From: Vermamoeba vermiformis
Taxonomy: Eukaryota
Direction: 5' to 3'
Length of the DNA stretch: 64,000 bases
NCBI GenBank assembly: GCA_045837725.1
Contig: JBEWZL010000003.1
Coordinates: 62,001 to 126,000 of the forward strand
Shown here: positions 3,392 to 43,600 of the stretch, piece by piece
How positions within the stretch are numbered: the stretch's first letter is position 1
Layout: every line of letters begins with the position of its first letter
Position numbers and translations under genes: made by a program
The notes under the pieces: model-generated
The model's input: the letters and a program-made list of their open reading frames with translations, nothing else
The model's database searches: none
What the model was told of the DNA's origin: nothing

Positions 3392-5737
3392 TTATCTTCT
3401 TCGTCTTTCTCTGGATCTAGAACGCGATCTCGATCTGGATCTCGAGCGACGAGAGTGTCGTCTTTCTCTCGAGCGGGACCTAGATTTCGAACGTGATCTT
3501 CTTCTGTCTCTATCACGGTCGCGAGTGCTTTCACGAGGTCGGATATCTGAGCCCAATTCACCCTTCGATTCGAATTGCACGGCTGATCGTCTGGGATCGC
3601 GTCCACGATAATCATCTTCTTTCTGTGAACCACCGCCACTTGCGTGCATGACACCAAGTTGTTGTCGTTGAGGTACTTTCTTTTGTCCAGTCTTCGCTTC
3701 GTGCAAGAAATCATCCAATCCAAACACATCCTCTTCTTGCACTTTTTCGAACTCAACAGGTCCGGTGCGTTGTGATTTTTCACCGGGTGCTTTTTCTGCG
3801 CCTTCGAAGCCTCGGTCAGGTTGGAATTTGCTTGTGCGCAACGACTCCTGCAACTCTTTCTCGCCGTACTGTTCTTCGTCGTTCTTCGCTGGAGCCTTGT
3901 ACAGCGCTGCTTCACGGTCACCGCCGCGCATGGGCTTGTCGTACACGGTGTAGGCCTCGTCATCGCCAAAGCCGCTGTCCATGCCTGCTGACTGATTGAA
4001 CAAGCGCGAGTCGAATAACGTCTCTTGAGGGCGAGAGACAGCTTGACCAAGTGCCATCTTTTCACTGACATCACGTTCAGCGTCGCGTTGTGTCTTCGCT
4101 TTCTTGCTGCCTCTGTTCTCCATGCGCATCTCGCGTTCGCGTTCACGACGACGTTCTTCCATGATCTTCTCACGTTCTCGTCGGCCTTCGCGGTCGTCAT
4201 CCTCCTCAGCGGCCTCTTGCTCAATCTCCATACGCTCCAATCGAGCTTGTTGGGCGGCAAGTCGCAAGGCTTCCTTTTGGTTCTCGCGATCCATAATTCC
4301 TTTTTGTTTTTCTAACGCGGCTCTCTTTGCGACTTCATCTCGTGCATTTCGTTCGGCAATGTACATGGCTTGCGAGAACTTGGCAAAGTTGTCGTTCAAA
4401 ACGGGCTCAATGAGGCCTCTGCCGTCAGTAGCAAGACGCTTATCCAACGGAATTGTGAAACCTTTTTGATTCTTCCAGTTGGAGATTGCAGGCGGGATCT
4501 TCCATGCGTCGCGTTCTTCTTTGGTCAATTTCTTTGACGGCGAGTGCATAATGGGGACTGGGGCATCTGGAGGACCACGAGGAACTTTTTTGTTCTTGAA
4601 TTTTGGTGGTTCTAAAGGATCTTTCGGCATCTACGCGCAGAAAAATAAATCATTAGAAACTTTGCATGATTATAGCAAACTGCACTAAGATATGAAAGAT
4701 CCATATATAATTTACGTCTTGTTTAAAATTTAAGTTGTCCTAAAGATTTGACAGCGCAAGGAGTGTTCCGAGCGAAAGCTTTAAAAAGTTATCGGATAAA
4801 TAATTACTGAAATTGAAATTGAAATGATATTATAGACACTACAACTTACCTCAACCATACGGATAATACGAGTATCTGCTCCGGAGTTGTGAGCTGGATT
4901 GTGATTGGCGGGCGTGTAGCGGATGTACTTAGTCGTTCCTTCTCGCTCTACGTTGTCGGCATTGGCAGGTTGAGTAGCTCTGATCTTAGTATTTAACTTC
5001 TTTTCTAACGCAGCGCGAGTCTTGTCGGTGGCTTCTTTTTCCATTTCCGCATCAGGCTTCGACAGCGCATCTTCGTCAAATTGCTTCTCCATCATATCGC
5101 TATGCTTAGAGTATATAATTTGGTCAGAGCGACCTCGCTTGATGATGGCATCCCATTCAACTTTGCCTTCTTTGGATAAATTGACAGATACGATCTCGCT
5201 GCCAACTGAAGAGCCATCTGCGTTCTTTTTGCCCATATTAAGTGGGTACTGTGCAATATGAATCTCAGGGAAGGCACCGCCATCACCAAAGTCTTCAGGT
5301 GTACGAGGGACCCAGCCTTGGCGTTGACCGTATGCTGGGATTCGCTTGTTTTGTTCCTCGATCTTCTTTGCATTGGGATATAATGGTGCTTCATTCACAG
5401 GAGAGATGTCCATAGGTTGCTGCTTAGGAGCGGGAAGCAGACTATAATATAACAAGCAATTAGCCATCGAGTTTGTCAGATCCAAAGAAAAATTTACAAA
5501 TAGAAGAACTGCACCAAAAATTCGTATTTAATTCGGACTAAATATTATTACTAGCGTAAGAACGGAATATGCTAAGAGTTGTGGCGAATAATCAATAACA
5601 CCATAATAATTGAAAAAATGATTATCGGTTTTTACAAATCTACCACAAATATCGAGTCAAGTAAAAATTCTTCATAATAAATGCGCATTATATTATTCAA
5701 AAAATATATACCTTCTTAATGCAGCTACTTCAGTCAT
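3392..5737 (-). CDS. SNW1: SNW/SKIP (Prp45) spliceosomal protein with RS-rich tail
   Basis: DFGDGGAFPEIH, DPLEPPKF, IPPAISNWKNQKGFTIPLDKRL motifs; 3 exons (5737-5712, 5441-4850, 4630-3392). Confidence 0.97.
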
Positions 5738-8448: not shown

Positions 8449-8769
8449 GGGCGAAAATAAGGAGAAAGAGGCCGCTTCAAGGCCAGAGTGGATCTGCTAG
8501 TACGCAAAGCAGTTTAATTATGATAATACATCGATTTACGATTGTTTACGGCTGAATCTAGCTGCTGCTCACTACTCTTCTCAACTTTTTCGCAAGAAAC
8601 CCTGGTCAGAGAAAATCGCACGAAAAAACGGCCATAAAAACGAAAGTTTGGCTTGTTTTTTTTCAGTTTATTTTGCGCATTTCAACAATACGCAACACCA
8701 GCTTACTGCAGTAATTCTTACTGTTCTACCCCACTCTTTCATATTTAAACTTTTCAAACTACATCTACA

Positions 8770-9446
8770 ATGGCAGCTTTAGAAGTCGACGGTATCTACG
8801 TTGAAGCAGCTAACGACATCCGAAAGGGCGGCTACATGGTCATGAACAATGGCAAATCTCCCTGCAAGGTGATTGAGATCTCAAAATCCAAGCCTGGTAA
8901 GTTTTACCCCTTTTTGGCTTAGTTCTTGCAATTAGCTGAAGCTCGTGGTCAAACTAGTAACTAACCTTGCAATGTTTCATAGGCAAGCACGGCTCCGCCA
9001 AGATCCGCTTCATGGGCCTCGACATTTTCACTGATAGAAAGTACGACGCTCTTGCCGGATCCCACGACAAGGTTGACGTCCCTGAAGTCTTCAAGAAGGA
9101 CCTTATGGTAAGCATAGCCAAGCTAAGTTAAAGCGAGCTCGTTCTAACACCATCCGCATAGGTTGTTGACTACGCTGAGGGTCAAGAAGACATGACCGTG
9201 AAGGACATCAACGGTTCGTCCTACAAGATACCTGTGCCAACGGGTGACTGCGCAGAGACCATCGCATCACTATGGTACGACCGAGGTAAGTTTGTGATTC
9301 GAATTTCAGAAATAAAATTGATAAAATTGTCTAATAAATTTGATAAAACAGAGAGCGACGACACTTCGGTCTTCGTCACAGTGCAAGCTGCAATGGGCAA
9401 GATCGTCGTCCTCGGAGCCAAGGAGCGTGAAATTAAGCAGGCCTAA
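8770..9446 (+). CDS. EIF5A: Translation factor eIF5A (divergent)
   Basis: 4 exons; DIRKGGYMV...PCKVIEISKSKP|GKHGSAK (hypusine loop), GLDIFT, VTVQAAMG. Confidence 0.92.
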
Positions 9447-9666
9447 GTGGCAGGCCTGCTTAAGAAGAGATGTTTTATGATGAAAGTGGATCTACATCCG
9501 CTTCTGACATCGTCTCTTCACTAGTGAATACTAAGACCTAAAGAATTAAAGAAGGCTTATCTTCGCAAATAAGTATTCACGAAAATTGTTTCACGCACAA
9601 AAAAATAAATTACCATTGGTAGTTTAGAAAAAAAACTTGTATTTTGACTAGATCCTCTCGCTTTTT

Positions 9667-12365
9667 TTATTTAGGCACTTGAATCAATTGAATCTTAACA
9701 CGTTTTGTCTTGCTCGAGAAGTCTTCGTTCAACTTGAACACGTTAGTTGGCGCTATGGGACTTGTGCTGGGTTCGCGCAACAAAAGTTTGACAGGTCCGT
9801 CTGTCAAAGTGTAAAGTGTTTGCATTAACAATCGGCCAGGCAAGTTAGTTTGCAATTGAAGTTCTTGGCCCGTGAGTTGATCTTTGTCTTCGAAGCAGCA
9901 CAACACGATCATCACTGAGGTCGGCACGATCAAATTATACTTTTTGTTCTTCGACTCGTACGTCATTTCACATTCGCCCTACGCTACGTTAGTTTATCGC
10001 TCAAATTAATGTTTTGTTGCAAGTTTTCGTACCAAGTGAGGCAAAACCATCAACTTTTTGTTGGCAGTTTCATCGCCCTGGAACTGTTCTTTGAACTGAC
10101 TCAGCGTTGAAGCGACTTCAGGCGGCAAAACAAACTCGGGCAGCATTGAAGTAACGGCGCTATCAACGTCCATTTTATCACCGTGCTCGTGCTTGTGGTG
10201 GTGTTCGTGACCACTTTGCTGCTCTTGTGCGTGGCTGTGAGTGTGGCCTTGTTGGGCTTGGTCGTGTGAATGAGAGTGACCTTGCATAGCCATCAACGAG
10301 GACATTAAATATTCCGCTGGGAGTTTGTTCGATGAAGCAATCTTGAGGTTCAAAGTCGTCTTGCTGTCTTCATCTTTCTTAATGTCTTTAACAACGTTCA
10401 GGTCCTTAATCATTTCTTCCATTTGTTGCGCGAGTGCGTTGAACCTTGCCACGCGCAGCTTGAAAATTAAATTCATCTCGAAGTCGAGATTAGGAGTCGT
10501 GCTCAGCAGTCTATTGGCCAATAGCTGCGTCATGTACTTGACAAAAGTTTGGTTCTAATTATAACGATATTATTAGTACTATAGACCTCCTATAATATAG
10601 CACATATGATTATATTATAGTGTACTTACATTCTCTTGGGAGGTGGCACAAAGTGACTTGAGAACACGAACAAGTTTGTCGAGTTTTTCATTCGCTTCTT
10701 GTTCAGCCTCGCTGTTTTGATAGTTCTGGGACTGACTCATGATCTTGTGGACATGTCGCGTCAAGTACATTGTGAACAGCTTGGCACCTTGAACACGTGA
10801 CAAGTAAATTTGACCCTACCCGAGCATCAGTGTCAGTAGAAATTTCGACGAAAAGTCATCACACGCATCGGTGAAAAAACTTTACCTGATTAAGCGCGTT
10901 ATCGAGTCCTTCTTTAGTACCAAATATGGTAACTGTTGTTCTTTGCATGTGCGACAAAAAGTCGAATAAAGTTTGCAGCACATCAGCGCCAATTTTGTCC
11001 TGAACGAGAGTGTCAAGCTAAAGTGACACGTGTCATTCTGAAGCTCTTACCAACTCTTTACCAGTTACATTTTCCAACGGCGCAACAATTTTTTCGAGCT
11101 TTGATTTGACGTACGCGTAAAAAGTCGAGCGGAATAACTTCAACACGCGAGGATGATGTTTCAACGCAGAATAGAAAATTCCGAGTTCTGTGAATATACT
11201 AATCAGTATCATTACTATATTATATTTAGCGACTTATATATACTAACCGTTCCATTTCTCTTGCAGCATTTGTTGTGCAATGTGATTGACAATTTCATCT
11301 TCAAAATCTTCGACGGTCAGATCCACGAGACTAGGGACAAGTGCTCTATAAACAACGCATTAGCACCGCTTCTAATATTTCCTTTTTAGGAAATTTCATT
11401 CGGTCGAACTAAACCTTGCCGAGGTAGATCTGTACGTACCCATATTTCAGTCCAACAATTTCAGGGGTCAATACACGAGTGCGCAAAAGGTGCTTCTGTT
11501 CAGGTGTCAAATCGTCGCTGGGAATCATCGAACTGAAACCAATCGCGTCCATTTCAAAACTGTTCAATTGGACCATAAAATCCATGCTCGGATCTATCGA
11601 CTTGCGCATTGCTTTGACGTGTTGATATGCTTCTTTTAATGTGCAACTATTGTTGTAATGTTAGTAGCCGACACTTATATAATAAAAAACGATAGTATAT
11701 ATTAATACGTATATTAGTCACTGAAATTTAACGTCATAAAGTAGCGCATCCACTACGAAATTTTGGATTTCAGTTTAAATCATGAATTCAACACTTAAAA
11801 AGCGATCAATATAGTGATAATATAATATATTGAGATAATAATAATTTTCTAGATTGTAAAGACCTACCCACTACGATACATAATATAAGCAATAATTATT
11901 GCTGCGGCGCGTGAATTGCCTGATTTATCGTGCACTAATACGCCTTGATTTCTATTAAGTGCTTCATCTGTTACATTGAAATTACAATTAATACATAATG
12001 AAGCATGACGTGGATCTGACATCAAAATATCGAAAAAAATTCTAAAATAAATTCTATGGACGATTTAGACGAAAATGTTCATAAAATAAGCGATAGATAA
12101 TATTTTAAAATTTACCCATGAACATAAAAGACGGTTCTAAGTACTGAAGCAGATCTTGTTCCAGATTTCCATCGTAGAGTTCAACAGTGAGATATTTGTA
12201 GTTTTCATGCTCCTCTTGAAAGTGATTTTTGCATTGAGGATAGCCTGCATTGAGAATATAACGAACATTAAGTTCTACGAGCAGATCTCGTGAGCACGAA
12301 TTCCATTCAGTTCCAATCCACAAATTTTTAATAATTTGGGTAGGAGGGCGTTTAAGAGCTTCCAT
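9667..12365 (-). CDS. Dual-specificity pseudophosphatase fused to a cullin C-terminal half
   Basis: Phase-compatible exons: PTQIIKNLWIG...VLVHDKSGNSRAAAIIIAYIM...AYQHVKAMRKSIDPSMDFMVQL (DSP fold), then cullin motifs FVKYMTQLLANRLL, QMEEMIKDL, LPPEV...HL|GECEM, VLCCFEDKDQLTGQEL, FKLNEDFSSKTKRVKI. Confidence 0.82.
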
Positions 12366-40629: not shown

Positions 40630-43600
40630 TTACTCGGTCTTTTCTATAATTTTGATAATTCCGGTTGATCCATCCACAAACACCTCAGTACCCGTTTTGA
40701 TCGTCTTCGTAACATTATTAACACCAAGCACTGCTGGTAATCCAAATTCCCGTGCAGTGATTGCAGCATGAGATAATAAGCCACCATGTTCCGTAACAAC
40801 CGCTACAAAAGCAAGCATTAATTTTTGATCGCGGATCTACGTGCATTATTTAACGTACCGACAACGTGCATAAATAGAGGTGTCCAATACGGATCAGTAG
40901 TAGATGCGATGAGCACCGTGCCTGGCTCAATGTGCGCTACTTCGGTCGGCGAATCCAGAACTAAAGCTTTGCCAGTAACTTGGCCTGGGCTAGCTGCTGT
41001 GCCTTTCATACTCTAATAATATTGTCAGTATACAAATATGGCATTGATTGCCTTTTAAGGAGAAGCTGTTACTTACATCTGCATCGTTTGTATTCGTGAA
41101 CAAGGGCTCGTCTCCTAAGAACGCACAAGGTGGTGATAAATCCCGATTTTTCATCCATTTAGTTCTATTTGCTGCCACGTGCTCTTGAATTATCTTGGCG
41201 TCCCACTTGCCTTCGAGAATTGTCTCGAGATCTTCGATGGACAAATGGAAAAGATCCTCGATATCCACAAGCCCCTTATCCTCTAAATATAATTGGCAGT
41301 ATGAGTAAATATAATTATATCGTATTATTGTTCATATTTATACCTAGTAACTTGGATCCGATGGTCAACAAGATCCGTCGTTGGACGGCGATAAAATGCA
41401 CTACTACTGCTTTACAGTTTTCTCGTAAACGAGACATGGCTTGAAATCTGCATAATAGACGGCGTTAGCTGTACATATACGATACTACCAAGCCCTTACT
41501 TTCCCACGGCCCACGAGTACAATGGACGCAAGAAGATGTTTTGTGCAGCTACAACTTTTTTCTCAGAATTGCGTCGCTGCTCCAACAAATCGATTTTGCT
41601 CACCCGTGTCGATGAGGTAGCATTAACGCTAATCTGTAAGAACTTTAAGATGTCATTTGGCATGTCACTCCATCGTGGCTGTGCAACTTCGAGTTCAATT
41701 TTGGATCGGTAACCGTACTTGACGATAAATTCTTGCAATTCTTTGATTATCGGAGATCTTTCCGATAACAGTGCATGCAACTCTTTCCAATCTAACTTAT
41801 CTGCCTCCTATCAATTTTATCAATTATCTATAGTCAAGATCAGATCAGACTTACTTGTTTGAAGTACTCTTTTGCCTCTTGGTTTTCCTTAATCAATGCA
41901 GCTATTTCGAATAATTTTTCGTCTTGTTCGACGGTCACTACGTCCCCGAGACCAGTCAACAATGATGCAAATAACTGCGTGCCATTCTCTTTCTTTTCAA
42001 TGCCTTGCCAAACTACCTCCTTAAAAATCGACAAATAGATTTGCAAGTCCATGTAGATCTTTCCGAAATCAACAAACTCTTCCTAAAAAGGAAATCAATC
42101 ACAATCATACAAAATAAATTGTTGTTCAATCGTACCTGCACTTGATTGAATATTTCAAATAATTTCTTTTCATCATATTCGTGCAGGTCTTTGGCTCTCA
42201 TTTGCAAACAAAATTCGTTGTACTGTCGCCAATTCTTTTCAGCCTTTTCAATGAACTCTTTGCTCTTGAACAAATGACCCAAAATATTCGACAACCCTAA
42301 TAATACAATTAGGCACCTTTTCAAGTATAATCATAGGGTTCGTACCTTTGATTTTGTTCGATTTTTCATGTGGTAAGTTTGCAGCTAAAATCTCCGGCGA
42401 GATATCTTCAAATTCTTTCGTAATTGTTTTCAAGTCAGCGCCAAACTCTTTTACCATCAATTTATACGTCGTTGTAACATTTTGAAAGACTCGACCCCAT
42501 TTCAATTCGTAGAATGGTTGTTCCTGTATAATATTCGATTGATTAGTATTTCCTTTTTAGGAAAGTCATTGTGCGTACCTTAGAATATTTGATGCCTTTT
42601 TGTTTGTACCGTTTTTTTAGTGCCTTATTAATGATCGTATTAAATGCAGACCAAGTCATCATAGTAGCAGCATGGCCCATCACTTCTTTGCTGTTCTTGT
42701 TCGAGTACAGATCCTTTCGGCCATCCGAGTTTTGAGTTGTTGAAACTTCGCCTTTTTTGGTAATAGGCCTTGCTTGGAGTATCCATAATTTTTCACCGTC
42801 CCAAGTCCATTCAACGTCCACTGGGTACTTGAAGTAACTTTCTATTTTTAGCGCTGTTTCTCGCAAGTGTCTGCATAGCTCGGCCGTAACTATTTCGCTC
42901 TTCATTTGCATTTCTTCCTTTTTTGGTATAGTAATTTTCTCCGGAGTAACTTTGCCCGATACAATTTGATCGCAGTAGCCTTCTGCTGCTTCGACGATGA
43001 TCTCATCTGCACTCGTCATAGGATTGACGCTGAATAATACGCCAGAGATCTTACTAGCAATCATTGGTTGGATTAACACCGCCAAATTAGGACTTTCAGG
43101 AAGGTCGTTGACTTTGCGATAATTTATGGCTCGTTCAGTCCTGAAAAAGACCAGATCAGACACGCGTGTTCGAGCGGATCTTGTCCTACCTGGTGGAAGA
43201 CCAGCACTCTTTCAACGCCTTGAATATATCGCCCTTATCGACCATTAATATGCTCTCGTGTATGCCTGCAAAAGACAGCTTGGCAGAGTCCTCAAGCAAG
43301 CCTGAAGATCTGACTGCGTAACGTGTCGATTCTGAGACAGTTTTGGACAGTTCCTGAAAATAAGTATATCAATTAATATACGCACATCACAGTGTGGTAT
43401 TGCTAACCTTGATTCGCTCGGTCAATTCGTGAGTAAGCTGATCGGGCCAGTGAGTGTCAGATTTCACAATATCTTCAGGAGTGCACGTCGCGAAATCAAT
43501 TTTATTAGCACCTAAATATTCCTCGAATGCCCTTGCGAATATTACGAACCCTAATTGCGGTGTCAATAACGTAATTGGGGTTTTGAATCAAAAATTAAAC

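What the first reader, a model, noticed from the sequence alone, without database searches (positions are those of the whole stretch)
9667..12365. Pseudophosphatase-cullin fusion: a possible single-chain, neddylation-independent phospho-sensing E3 scaffold
Seen: all exon phases join a DSP domain to a cullin C-terminal half in one ORF. The PTP loop reads VHDKSGNSR (Asp codon at 11927-11929) instead of VHCxxGxSR, so the nucleophile is lost while the phosphate-binding Arg and the upstream Asp (LYDG) remain. The cullin part starts in the last cullin repeat and stops right after FKLNEDFSSKTKRVKI, with only about 220 bp to the eIF5A stop. Known: the cullin N-terminus binds Skp1/BTB/Elongin adaptors, the C-terminal domain binds Rbx1, and the terminal winged helix carries the NEDD8 lysine; Cys-less DSPs such as STYX are inactive binders. 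Inference: the dead phosphatase replaces the whole adaptor/receptor module, giving either a one-piece phospho-substrate ligase or an Rbx1 decoy. I know of no described protein with this architecture.
Basis: partly seen in the sequence, partly recalled or inferred. Interest (0 to 1): 0.85.

Follow-up and report, generated by a model that had tools for sequence, protein, structure and literature searches.

The report
Conserved phosphatase-cullin fusion gene
This is a real, expressed gene that joins a phosphatase-like domain lacking its catalytic cysteine to the back half of a cullin ubiquitin-ligase scaffold with no NEDD8 site, and the same undescribed fusion occurs in distant relatives that mostly keep the cysteine.

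Summary
A nine-exon minus-strand gene (9667-12365, 641 aa, all introns GT..AG) joins an MKP-type dual-specificity phosphatase (DSP) domain to a cullin CR3/4HB/alpha-beta/WH-A region that ends before the WH-B/NEDD8 domain.

It is one gene:
- Spliced contigs and RNA reads cross the 11440|11345 junction.
- A 661-aa ortholog sits on a 2060-nt contig, too short to hold the introns.
- In a distant relative the P-loop-to-cullin stretch is a single genomic exon (L001).

The catalytic Cys position reads Asp (GAT, 11929-11927). A 90%-identical ortholog also has Asp there.

New here: at least 10 further protein clusters share the architecture at about 30% identity to the window protein.
- All 11 aligned members lack WH-B.
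- Three distant members keep HCKSGKSR.
- One genomic variant reads Gly at that position.

So the dead phosphatase is derived in this lineage, not ancestral.

I found no description of the architecture in print. Binding to an Rbx1-type RING protein could not be tested. My best reading is a compact, neddylation-independent RING scaffold that uses the DSP domain as its substrate module. Confidence in that mechanism is about 0.4; confidence in the architecture is about 0.95.

The parts
9667..12365 (-). Whole gene: 9 exons, 641 aa, start ATG at 12365-12363, stop TAA at 9669-9667
   Evidence: Splice model. It is collinear with database ortholog P0153 at 578 of 641 aligned residues.
12116..12365 (-). 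Exon 1 (DSP N-terminal part, aa 1-83)
   Evidence: The intron position is shared with relatives whose exon-1 fragments end FEFIGT.. and with L001.
11868..11967 (-). Exon 2 (P-loop exon)
   Evidence: Pfam DSPc E 3.2e-7.
11440..11646 (-). Exon 3 (DSP C-terminal part plus linker)
   Evidence: Pfam DSPc E 6e-4.
11346..11439 (-). Intron 3: the junction between the DSP half and the cullin half
   Evidence: joint 11346->11443 with the letters CG between. This equals the 11440|11345 splice carrying a synonymous TAT>TAC change. It is seen in X1 contig 4 (370 nt, covering exons 5, 4 and 3), in 4 reads of X12, and in 1 read each of X10 and X11.
11248..11345 (-). Exon 4
   Evidence: The 11187->11248 joint is present in an X1 contig.
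11051..11187 (-). Exon 5
10886..10999 (-). Exon 6
   Evidence: The 10814->10885 joint is seen in X1 and X12.
10630..10815 (-). Exon 7
   Evidence: The 10554->10630 joint is seen in X1.
10033..10554 (-). Exon 8 (end of the cullin 4-helix bundle, His-rich loop, start of the alpha/beta domain)
   Evidence: Pfam Cullin E 2e-6.
9667..9978 (-). Exon 9 (alpha/beta hairpin, WH-A, stop)
   Evidence: Pfam Cullin E 1.8e-16, profile 531-620 of 620. The 9977->10032 joint is seen in all 4 runs.
11927..11929 (-). Asp codon GAT at the position of the catalytic Cys
   Evidence: It aligns with the Cys of DUSP9.
11909..11911 (-). P-loop Arg codon (R103)
12171..12173 (-). Asp65 (LYDG), aligned with the general-acid Asp of MKP-type DUSPs
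10144..10290 (-). His-rich loop inserted in the cullin alpha/beta domain (about aa 453-501)
   Evidence: The loop is His-rich (11-23 His) in 7 of 11 family members. It is disordered in the AF2 model.

Best explanation
Shown:
- One expressed gene encodes an MKP-type DSP domain (aa about 7-150), a short helical linker, and a cullin core made of the last cullin repeat, the four-helix bundle, the alpha/beta domain and WH-A.
- The cullin core ends about 8 residues after the '...KRVKI' strand. It therefore has no adaptor-binding N-terminal repeats and no WH-B/NEDD8 lysine.
- The family is conserved across deeply diverged lineages.
- The window's lineage has replaced the catalytic Cys with Asp. It keeps the P-loop Arg and the general-acid Asp, and the domain remains under purifying selection.

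Inferred:
- The cullin alpha/beta and WH-A core still binds an Rbx1/Hrt1-type RING protein.
- Without WH-B the RING would not be held in the closed state, so the protein would act as a compact scaffold independent of NEDD8, CAND1 and CSN.
- The DSP domain, sitting where cullin repeats 1-2 plus adaptor and receptor normally sit, would supply the substrate.
- In Cys-bearing relatives that domain would bind and dephosphorylate its target. In this lineage it would mainly hold a phospho-protein. By similarity of the catalytic domain, that target may be a MAPK-like activation loop.
For: One gene, not two:
- RNA joints cross every tested intron, including intron 3.
- P0157 is 661 aa (1983 nt) on a 2060-nt contig. 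That contig cannot hold the 773 nt of introns.
- In L001, exon 2 is one open frame from the P-loop to the cullin stop.

Domains:
- P0153 scores Pfam Cullin E 4.9e-34 (aa 195-629, profile 238-620 of 620) and DSPc E 2.1e-25.
- Cullin matches 11 of 11 family members and DSPc matches 7 of 11. The call listed only these two families, so Cullin_Nedd8 matched none.
- PDB phmmer with P0001 found 36 distinct sequences, all cullins. The best is Cul3 at 1.1e-11, and the query ends at about Cul3 residue 678 of 768.
- In Foldseek, all listed top hits are Cul1-5, down to E 5.8e-15.
- The AF2 model of P0171 has pLDDT 86.9 and pTM 0.68.
- The DSP part is nearest DUSP9, DUSP10, DUSP6 and SSH2 (E 1e-23 to 5e-21).

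Selection after loss of the Cys:
- The DSP domain is 140 of 150 identical between the window and P0153.
- The whole protein is 578 of 641 identical.

Partner strand:
- The 'KL.LLPHLG' hairpin region and WH-A are the best-conserved part of the family.
- In the P0153 model the alpha/beta strand segments around aa 430-452 have low confidence. That is what one would expect if a partner strand were missing. This is suggestive only.

Recalled, not seen here:
- Rbx1 completes the cullin alpha/beta sheet (Zheng 2002).
- Removing WH-B mimics neddylation (Duda 2008; Yamoah 2008).
Against: - RING binding was not tested in any way.
- In the window's lineage the first alpha/beta strand is degenerate: LNLKIASSNKLP against LEVALLDASxWP in relatives.
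- An Asp at the base of the P-loop may weaken phosphate binding.
- Relatives keep the Cys, so a pure phospho-reader role is not ancestral.
- No RING-H2 gene lies in the window.
- The organism is not identified.
- Two ordinary cullin-like database hits (P0010, P0014) also lack Cullin_Nedd8. Truncated cullin predictions therefore exist for trivial reasons elsewhere. Here, though, the stop codon is verified in DNA twice and in transcripts.
Confidence: 0.4

Rival explanations
1. RING decoy or CRL modulator. The cullin core binds Rbx1 or other CRL parts without productive substrate presentation, and so damps canonical cullin ligases.
For: - CACUL1, a protein with a partial cullin domain, co-precipitates with Rbx1, Cul3 and Keap1 and attenuates Nrf2 ubiquitination (PMC4523873, passages read).
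- STYX inhibits SCF through FBXW7 (PMC13216928, passage read).
- This protein has no adaptor-binding repeats and no WH-B.
Against: - A decoy would not need a conserved DSP domain, yet it is 140 of 150 identical to the ortholog.
- It would not need a catalytic Cys, yet 3 relatives keep one.
Confidence: 0.2
2. It is primarily a phosphatase, and the cullin-like tail only targets or scaffolds it. The tail would tether the DSP to ubiquitin-system or other partners. In this lineage Asp might sustain weak, oxidation-resistant catalysis.
For: - P0171, P0168 and P0167 carry an intact HCKSGKSR, and P0171 also shows the general-acid Asp.
- JGI names P0171 'predicted protein tyrosine phosphatase'.
- Romsicki et al. 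2003 studied a PTP1B C215D mutant. I saw only the title in a reference list. That the mutant retains low activity is recalled.
Against: - The Cys has been replaced in the window's lineage, and it reads Gly in L001, which otherwise matches P0167 at 589 of 591 residues. Catalysis therefore looks dispensable.
- The cullin part is as conserved as the DSP part.
Confidence: 0.25
3. Artefact: two adjacent genes (a stand-alone DSP, then a cullin fragment), or a decaying pseudogene.
For: - Reading through the exon-3 donor gives a stop after 9 codons.
- Databases hold many fragments such as P0001, P0002 and 81-99-aa pieces.
Against: - Spliced reads and contigs cross the junction.
- There are full-length uninterrupted ORFs, P0153 and P0157.
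- L001 has the junction inside a single exon.
- The window protein is 90% identical to its ortholog and the family is conserved at about 30% identity.
- The fragments are explained as exon-wise ORF calls and retained introns.
Confidence: 0.03

Closest known systems
Canonical cullins (Cul3 and Cul4 nearest; also Cul1, Cul2, Cul5)
   Same: Homologous last cullin repeat, four-helix bundle, alpha/beta domain and WH-A (Pfam E 4.9e-34; PDB Cul3 1.1e-11; Foldseek 5.8e-15).
   Different: - No cullin repeats 1-2: the Pfam profile match starts at position 238 of 620.
- No WH-B or NEDD8 lysine.
- A His-rich loop is inserted in the alpha/beta domain.
- A DSP domain is fused at the N-terminus.
MKP-type dual-specificity phosphatases (DUSP9, DUSP10, DUSP6; PDB 2hxp, 3lj8, 1zzw, 1mkp)
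   Same: The catalytic domain aligns end to end (E 1e-23). The P-loop Arg and general-acid Asp are conserved.
   Different: - Asp replaces the catalytic Cys in this lineage.
- No N-terminal rhodanese/kinase-interaction domain. The DSP starts at about aa 7, and Pfam lists only DSPc and Cullin.
STYX / STYXL1 pseudophosphatases
   Same: A DSP fold with the nucleophile replaced. STYX is linked to SCF through FBXW7 (PMC13216928 passage). The variant L001 even carries a Gly at this position. That STYX itself has Gly there is recalled.
   Different: - Not an ortholog: STYX (2r0b) scores 6e-13 against 1e-23 for DUSP9.
- STYX is a stand-alone protein.
- Here the residue is Asp and the domain is covalently fused to a cullin core.
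CACUL1/CAC1 and the atypical cullin-homology proteins APC2, CUL7, CUL9
   Same: They contain a cullin-domain portion outside the standard Cul1-5 layout. CACUL1 associates with Rbx1 and modulates a CRL (PMC4523873 passages).
   Different: - No sequence relationship to CACUL1 was tested here.
- That APC2, CUL7 and CUL9 keep a C-terminal winged helix and carry other accessory domains is recalled, plus search-listing abstracts.
- None is known to me to carry a phosphatase domain.

Membership tests
Cullin family (Pfam PF00888) | Sequence and fold homology of cullin repeat, 4HB, alpha/beta domain and WH-A | tested here: met
   - Window exons 8 and 9 match.
- P0153 scores E 4.9e-34, and 11 of 11 family members match.
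- Foldseek top hits are all cullins.
Cullin family (Pfam PF00888) | N-terminal cullin repeat 1 that binds Skp1, BTB or Elongin adaptors | tested here: not met
   The Pfam match covers profile positions 238-620 of 620 only. Residues 1-150 are a DSP domain.
Cullin family (Pfam PF00888) | C-terminal WH-B with the NEDD8-acceptor lysine (PF10557) | tested here: not met
   - PF10557 matched 0 of 11 members.
- The stop codon lies 8 codons after KRVKI in the window and at the same place in L001.
- Ordinary cullins in the same search do carry PF10557.
Cullin family (Pfam PF00888) | Binds an Rbx1/Rbx2/APC11-type RING protein through the alpha/beta domain | not testable with these tools
- No genome is held for the window.
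- No RING-H2 ORF lies in the window.
Dual-specificity phosphatase (Pfam PF00782, Cys-based class I PTP) | DSP catalytic-domain homology | tested here: met
   DSPc E 2.1e-25 on P0153 and DUSP9 E 1e-23.
Dual-specificity phosphatase (Pfam PF00782, Cys-based class I PTP) | HCx5R motif with a nucleophilic Cys | tested here: not met
   - The window reads VHDKSGNSR, with GAT at 11929-11927.
- The orthologs P0153 and P0157 read the same.
- The distant members P0171, P0168 and P0167 do have HCKSGKSR.
Dual-specificity phosphatase (Pfam PF00782, Cys-based class I PTP) | P-loop Arg and general-acid Asp | tested here: met
   R103 and D65 align with the DUSP9 counterparts.
MAP kinase phosphatase (MKP) subfamily | N-terminal rhodanese-like domain with a kinase-interaction motif | tested here: not met
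   Pfam lists only DSPc and Cullin, and the DSP domain starts at about aa 7.
Pseudophosphatase (STYX-like, functional class) | Nucleophile replaced while the fold and phosphate-binding residues are kept | tested here: met
Pseudophosphatase (STYX-like, functional class) | No catalysis, but phospho-dependent binding | not testable with these tools
   This needs enzyme and binding assays.

The most novel reading that the evidence does not exclude
This family is a natural single-chain cullin-RING ligase. A phosphatase-fold domain, fused directly to a RING-binding cullin core with no WH-B, selects phosphorylated substrates. It would work with no adaptor, no receptor and no NEDD8/CAND1/CSN cycle. 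The family would be turning repeatedly from enzyme to phospho-reader by losing the Cys. The codons TGT, GGT and GAT are seen in different members, and each differs from the next by one base.
Probability: 0.3. Interest if true: 0.85.

Novelty: new variant of a known kind. Interest (0 to 1): 0.66.

Why it matters
Cullin-RING ligases are thought to need separate adaptor and receptor proteins and activation by NEDD8. This is a conserved, expressed protein that keeps only the RING-side cullin core and has a phospho-protein-binding fold wired directly to it.

If it binds Rbx1, it would be a minimal natural design for phosphorylation-coupled ubiquitination, and a template for compact engineered degraders. 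If it does not, it would define a new non-ligase use of the cullin core.

The family also offers a natural series at one catalytic position (Cys, Gly, Asp) for studying how phosphatases become pseudophosphatases.

Tried and rejected
- No whole genome is held for this window, and the record behind L001 is not held either. I therefore could not search for the organism's Rbx1 or its other cullins.
- The look-up of sequencing runs: no RNA holder was listed on record. The runs I laid were a spliced-contig run (X1, kind guessed) and three raw RNA runs of a 90-95%-alike relative.
- ESM Atlas gave no usable hit for P0171. For the SNW neighbour it gave only a broad 'Eukaryota'. The taxon remains unidentified.
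- Earlier findings of this scan held nothing relevant.
- Rfam and tRNA scans of the window found 0 hits.
- A regex for an uninterrupted RING-H2 in six frames found none.
- Exon 1 alone gave no Pfam hit. It matches only as part of the whole domain.
- The word-based search with exon 9 found 1 protein among 31 candidates. The family was reached only through the full HMMER scan and then the alignment query.
- Literature searches returned nothing on a DSP-cullin architecture. 'DSPC' mostly hit lipid papers.
- Gene neighbours are not conserved. The window has eIF5A and LRR genes. L001 has a CENP-T-like histone fold and an unknown 853-aa ORF.
- I did not run complex prediction, because no legitimate Rbx1 chain was available.

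Full report
**What is in the sequence**

On the minus strand between 12365 and 9667, nine exons join in one frame. The exons are 12365-12116, 11967-11868, 11646-11440, 11345-11248, 11187-11051, 10999-10886, 10815-10630, 10554-10033 and 9978-9667. Together they make 1926 nt, which is 641 aa plus TAA. All eight introns (51-221 nt) are GT..AG. A TAA lies directly upstream of the ATG.

Pfam on single exons of the window itself gives:
- DSPc in exon 2 (E 3.2e-7) and exon 3 (E 6e-4).
- Cullin in exon 8 (E 2e-6, profile 400-459 of 620) and exon 9 (E 1.8e-16, profile 531-620 of 620).

The P-loop reads VHDKSGNSR, with Asp as GAT at 11929-11927. The Arg (11911-11909) and the LYDG Asp (12173-12171) are present. 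The stop is 220 nt from the stop of the convergent eIF5A gene.

The only correction is that the junction is 11440|11345.

**One gene, not two**

- RNA and spliced contigs. Three raw RNA runs of a 90-95%-alike relative and the spliced contigs of run X1 (95-99% alike) were laid on the region.
  - They show minus-strand GT..AG joints for introns 4, 6, 7 and 8.
  - For intron 3 there is a joint 11346->11443 with 'CG' between. That is exactly the 11440|11345 splice with a synonymous TAT>TAC change.
  - It is seen in an X1 contig of 370 nt covering exons 5, 4 and 3, in 4 reads of X12, and in 1 read each of X10 and X11.
- Full-length orthologs. The 90%-identity cluster around the first database hit contains P0153 (645 aa) and P0157 (661 aa).
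  - P0157 lies on a 2060-nt contig, which cannot also hold the 773 nt of introns.
  - Both match my splice model at every junction, at 578 of 641 identical residues.
- A distant relative's genomic locus (L001) has only one intron, at the same place as the window's intron 1. Its second exon is a single open frame running from the P-loop to the cullin stop.

**What the two halves are**

On P0153, Pfam finds DSPc (aa 18-148, E 2.1e-25) and Cullin (aa 195-629, profile 238-620 of 620, E 4.9e-34), and nothing else.

The DSP part is closest to MKP-type catalytic domains: DUSP9 at 1e-23, then DUSP10, DUSP6 and Slingshot-2. STYX scores only 6e-13. The Asp aligns with the catalytic Cys.

The cullin part is closest to Cul3 and Cul4 (1.1e-11). 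It ends where Cul3 residue about 678 of 768 lies, which is before WH-B.

AF2 models gave pLDDT 72.6 for P0153 and 86.9 (pTM 0.68) for P0171. In Foldseek, every listed top hit for the P0153 model is Cul1-5, down to E 5.8e-15.

**A family, and a twist**

A full HMMER scan of 1.84 billion representatives with P0001 gave 455 hits at E <= 0.001.
- Apart from two fragments of close kin of the window gene (P0002, P0012), three hits stood out: P0003, P0004 and P0006. They end at the same point and, where long enough, start inside a DSP domain.
- Of the other six hits I scanned with Pfam, four carry Cullin_Nedd8. Two (P0010, P0014) have Cullin only.

An alignment query then found 9 clusters among 8000 scored candidates.

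In the 11-member alignment:
- All 11 lack WH-B and end 8-20 residues after the K..R.K[VI] strand.
- 7 of 11 match DSPc. The other 4 start too late in the DSP domain to match (P0004, P0166, P0170) or lack it entirely (the fragment P0006). Exon-1 fragments P0172-P0174 end at the conserved intron.
- 7 of 11 carry a His-rich insertion (11-23 His) at the same loop of the alpha/beta domain.

Seven sequences cover the P-loop:
- The three of the window's lineage read Asp.
- P0171, P0168 and P0167 read HCKSGKSR.
- L001 reads Gly (GGT). Otherwise L001 matches P0167 at 589 of 591 residues, and the only other mismatch is the start codon.

Loss of the nucleophile is therefore derived. It may have happened more than once, or the site may be polymorphic. 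GGT differs from the Cys codon TGT by one base, and GAT differs from GGT by one more.

After the loss, the DSP domain stays well conserved between the window and P0153: 140 of 150 identical, against 233 of 258 and 132 of 136 for the two cullin segments.

**How it most likely works**

The architecture is shown. The mechanism is inferred.

The retained part of the cullin is the part that, in canonical cullins, holds the RING protein. That statement is recalled from the Cul1-Rbx1 structure literature. The missing parts are the adaptor arm and the NEDD8-regulated WH-B.

The simplest reading is a compact, NEDD8-independent RING scaffold whose substrate module is the fused DSP domain. That domain would be catalytic in most relatives and a phospho-binder, or a very weak enzyme, in this lineage.

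Rivals are:
- A RING or CRL decoy. The precedent is CACUL1 (passages of PMC4523873).
- A phosphatase that is merely tethered by a cullin-like tail.

None of these could be separated here, because no Rbx1 sequence or genome was available.

**Novelty**

- Searches found no paper describing a DSP-cullin protein.
- A 2026 fungal pseudophosphatome paper mentions cullin only in connection with STYX-FBXW7 (passages).
- One family member is labelled only 'predicted protein tyrosine phosphatase' by JGI.
- The organism is unidentified. It is a eukaryote with short introns and 39% GC.

Noticed in passing
window 10144-10290 (-), and the same loop in P0003, P0004, P0165-P0168: A His-rich insertion (11-23 His in about 85 aa) sits in the cullin alpha/beta domain. 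It is conserved in position in 7 of 11 family members and absent in 4. It is disordered in the AF2 model and may be a metal-binding or metal-sensing loop.
   Followed up: partly
L001 4352-4354: The catalytic codon reads GGT (Gly) here, where the otherwise identical protein P0167 (589 of 591 residues) has Cys. This is either a real allele at the active site or an assembly error.
   Followed up: partly
window 9433-9463: A perfect 12-nt inverted repeat (TTAAGCAGGCCT / AGGCCTGCTTAA, 7 nt apart) spans the eIF5A stop codon. RNA reads of the relative show strand-switch joints nearby (9463/9464->9558) and small indels at 9444-9462.
   Followed up: partly
window 8749-9446 (+): The convergent neighbour is eIF5A (Pfam IF5A-like_N). 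Its three introns are confirmed by RNA joints (8895->8982, 9106->9161, 9283->9350). The two genes' stops are only 220 nt apart, so their 3' UTRs probably overlap or abut.
   Followed up: yes
window 13072-15335 (+): Leucine-rich-repeat ORFs (LRR_14, and a weak F-box-associated LRR match) lie head-to-head upstream of the fusion gene. No F-box was found in the 12770-13105 ORF.
   Followed up: partly
database proteins P0001, P0002 and the 81-99-aa cluster members: Many database entries for this gene are exon-wise or intron-retaining ORF calls. P0001 reads through intron 6, and P0002 runs into intron 8. This hides the fusion from word-based searches.
   Followed up: yes
window 42543-43211 (-), 3392-4630 (-), 18591-19238 (+): Other genes in the window include a PPDK_N dikinase fragment, a SKIP/SNW splicing factor and a C3HC4 RING-finger ORF.
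   Followed up: no
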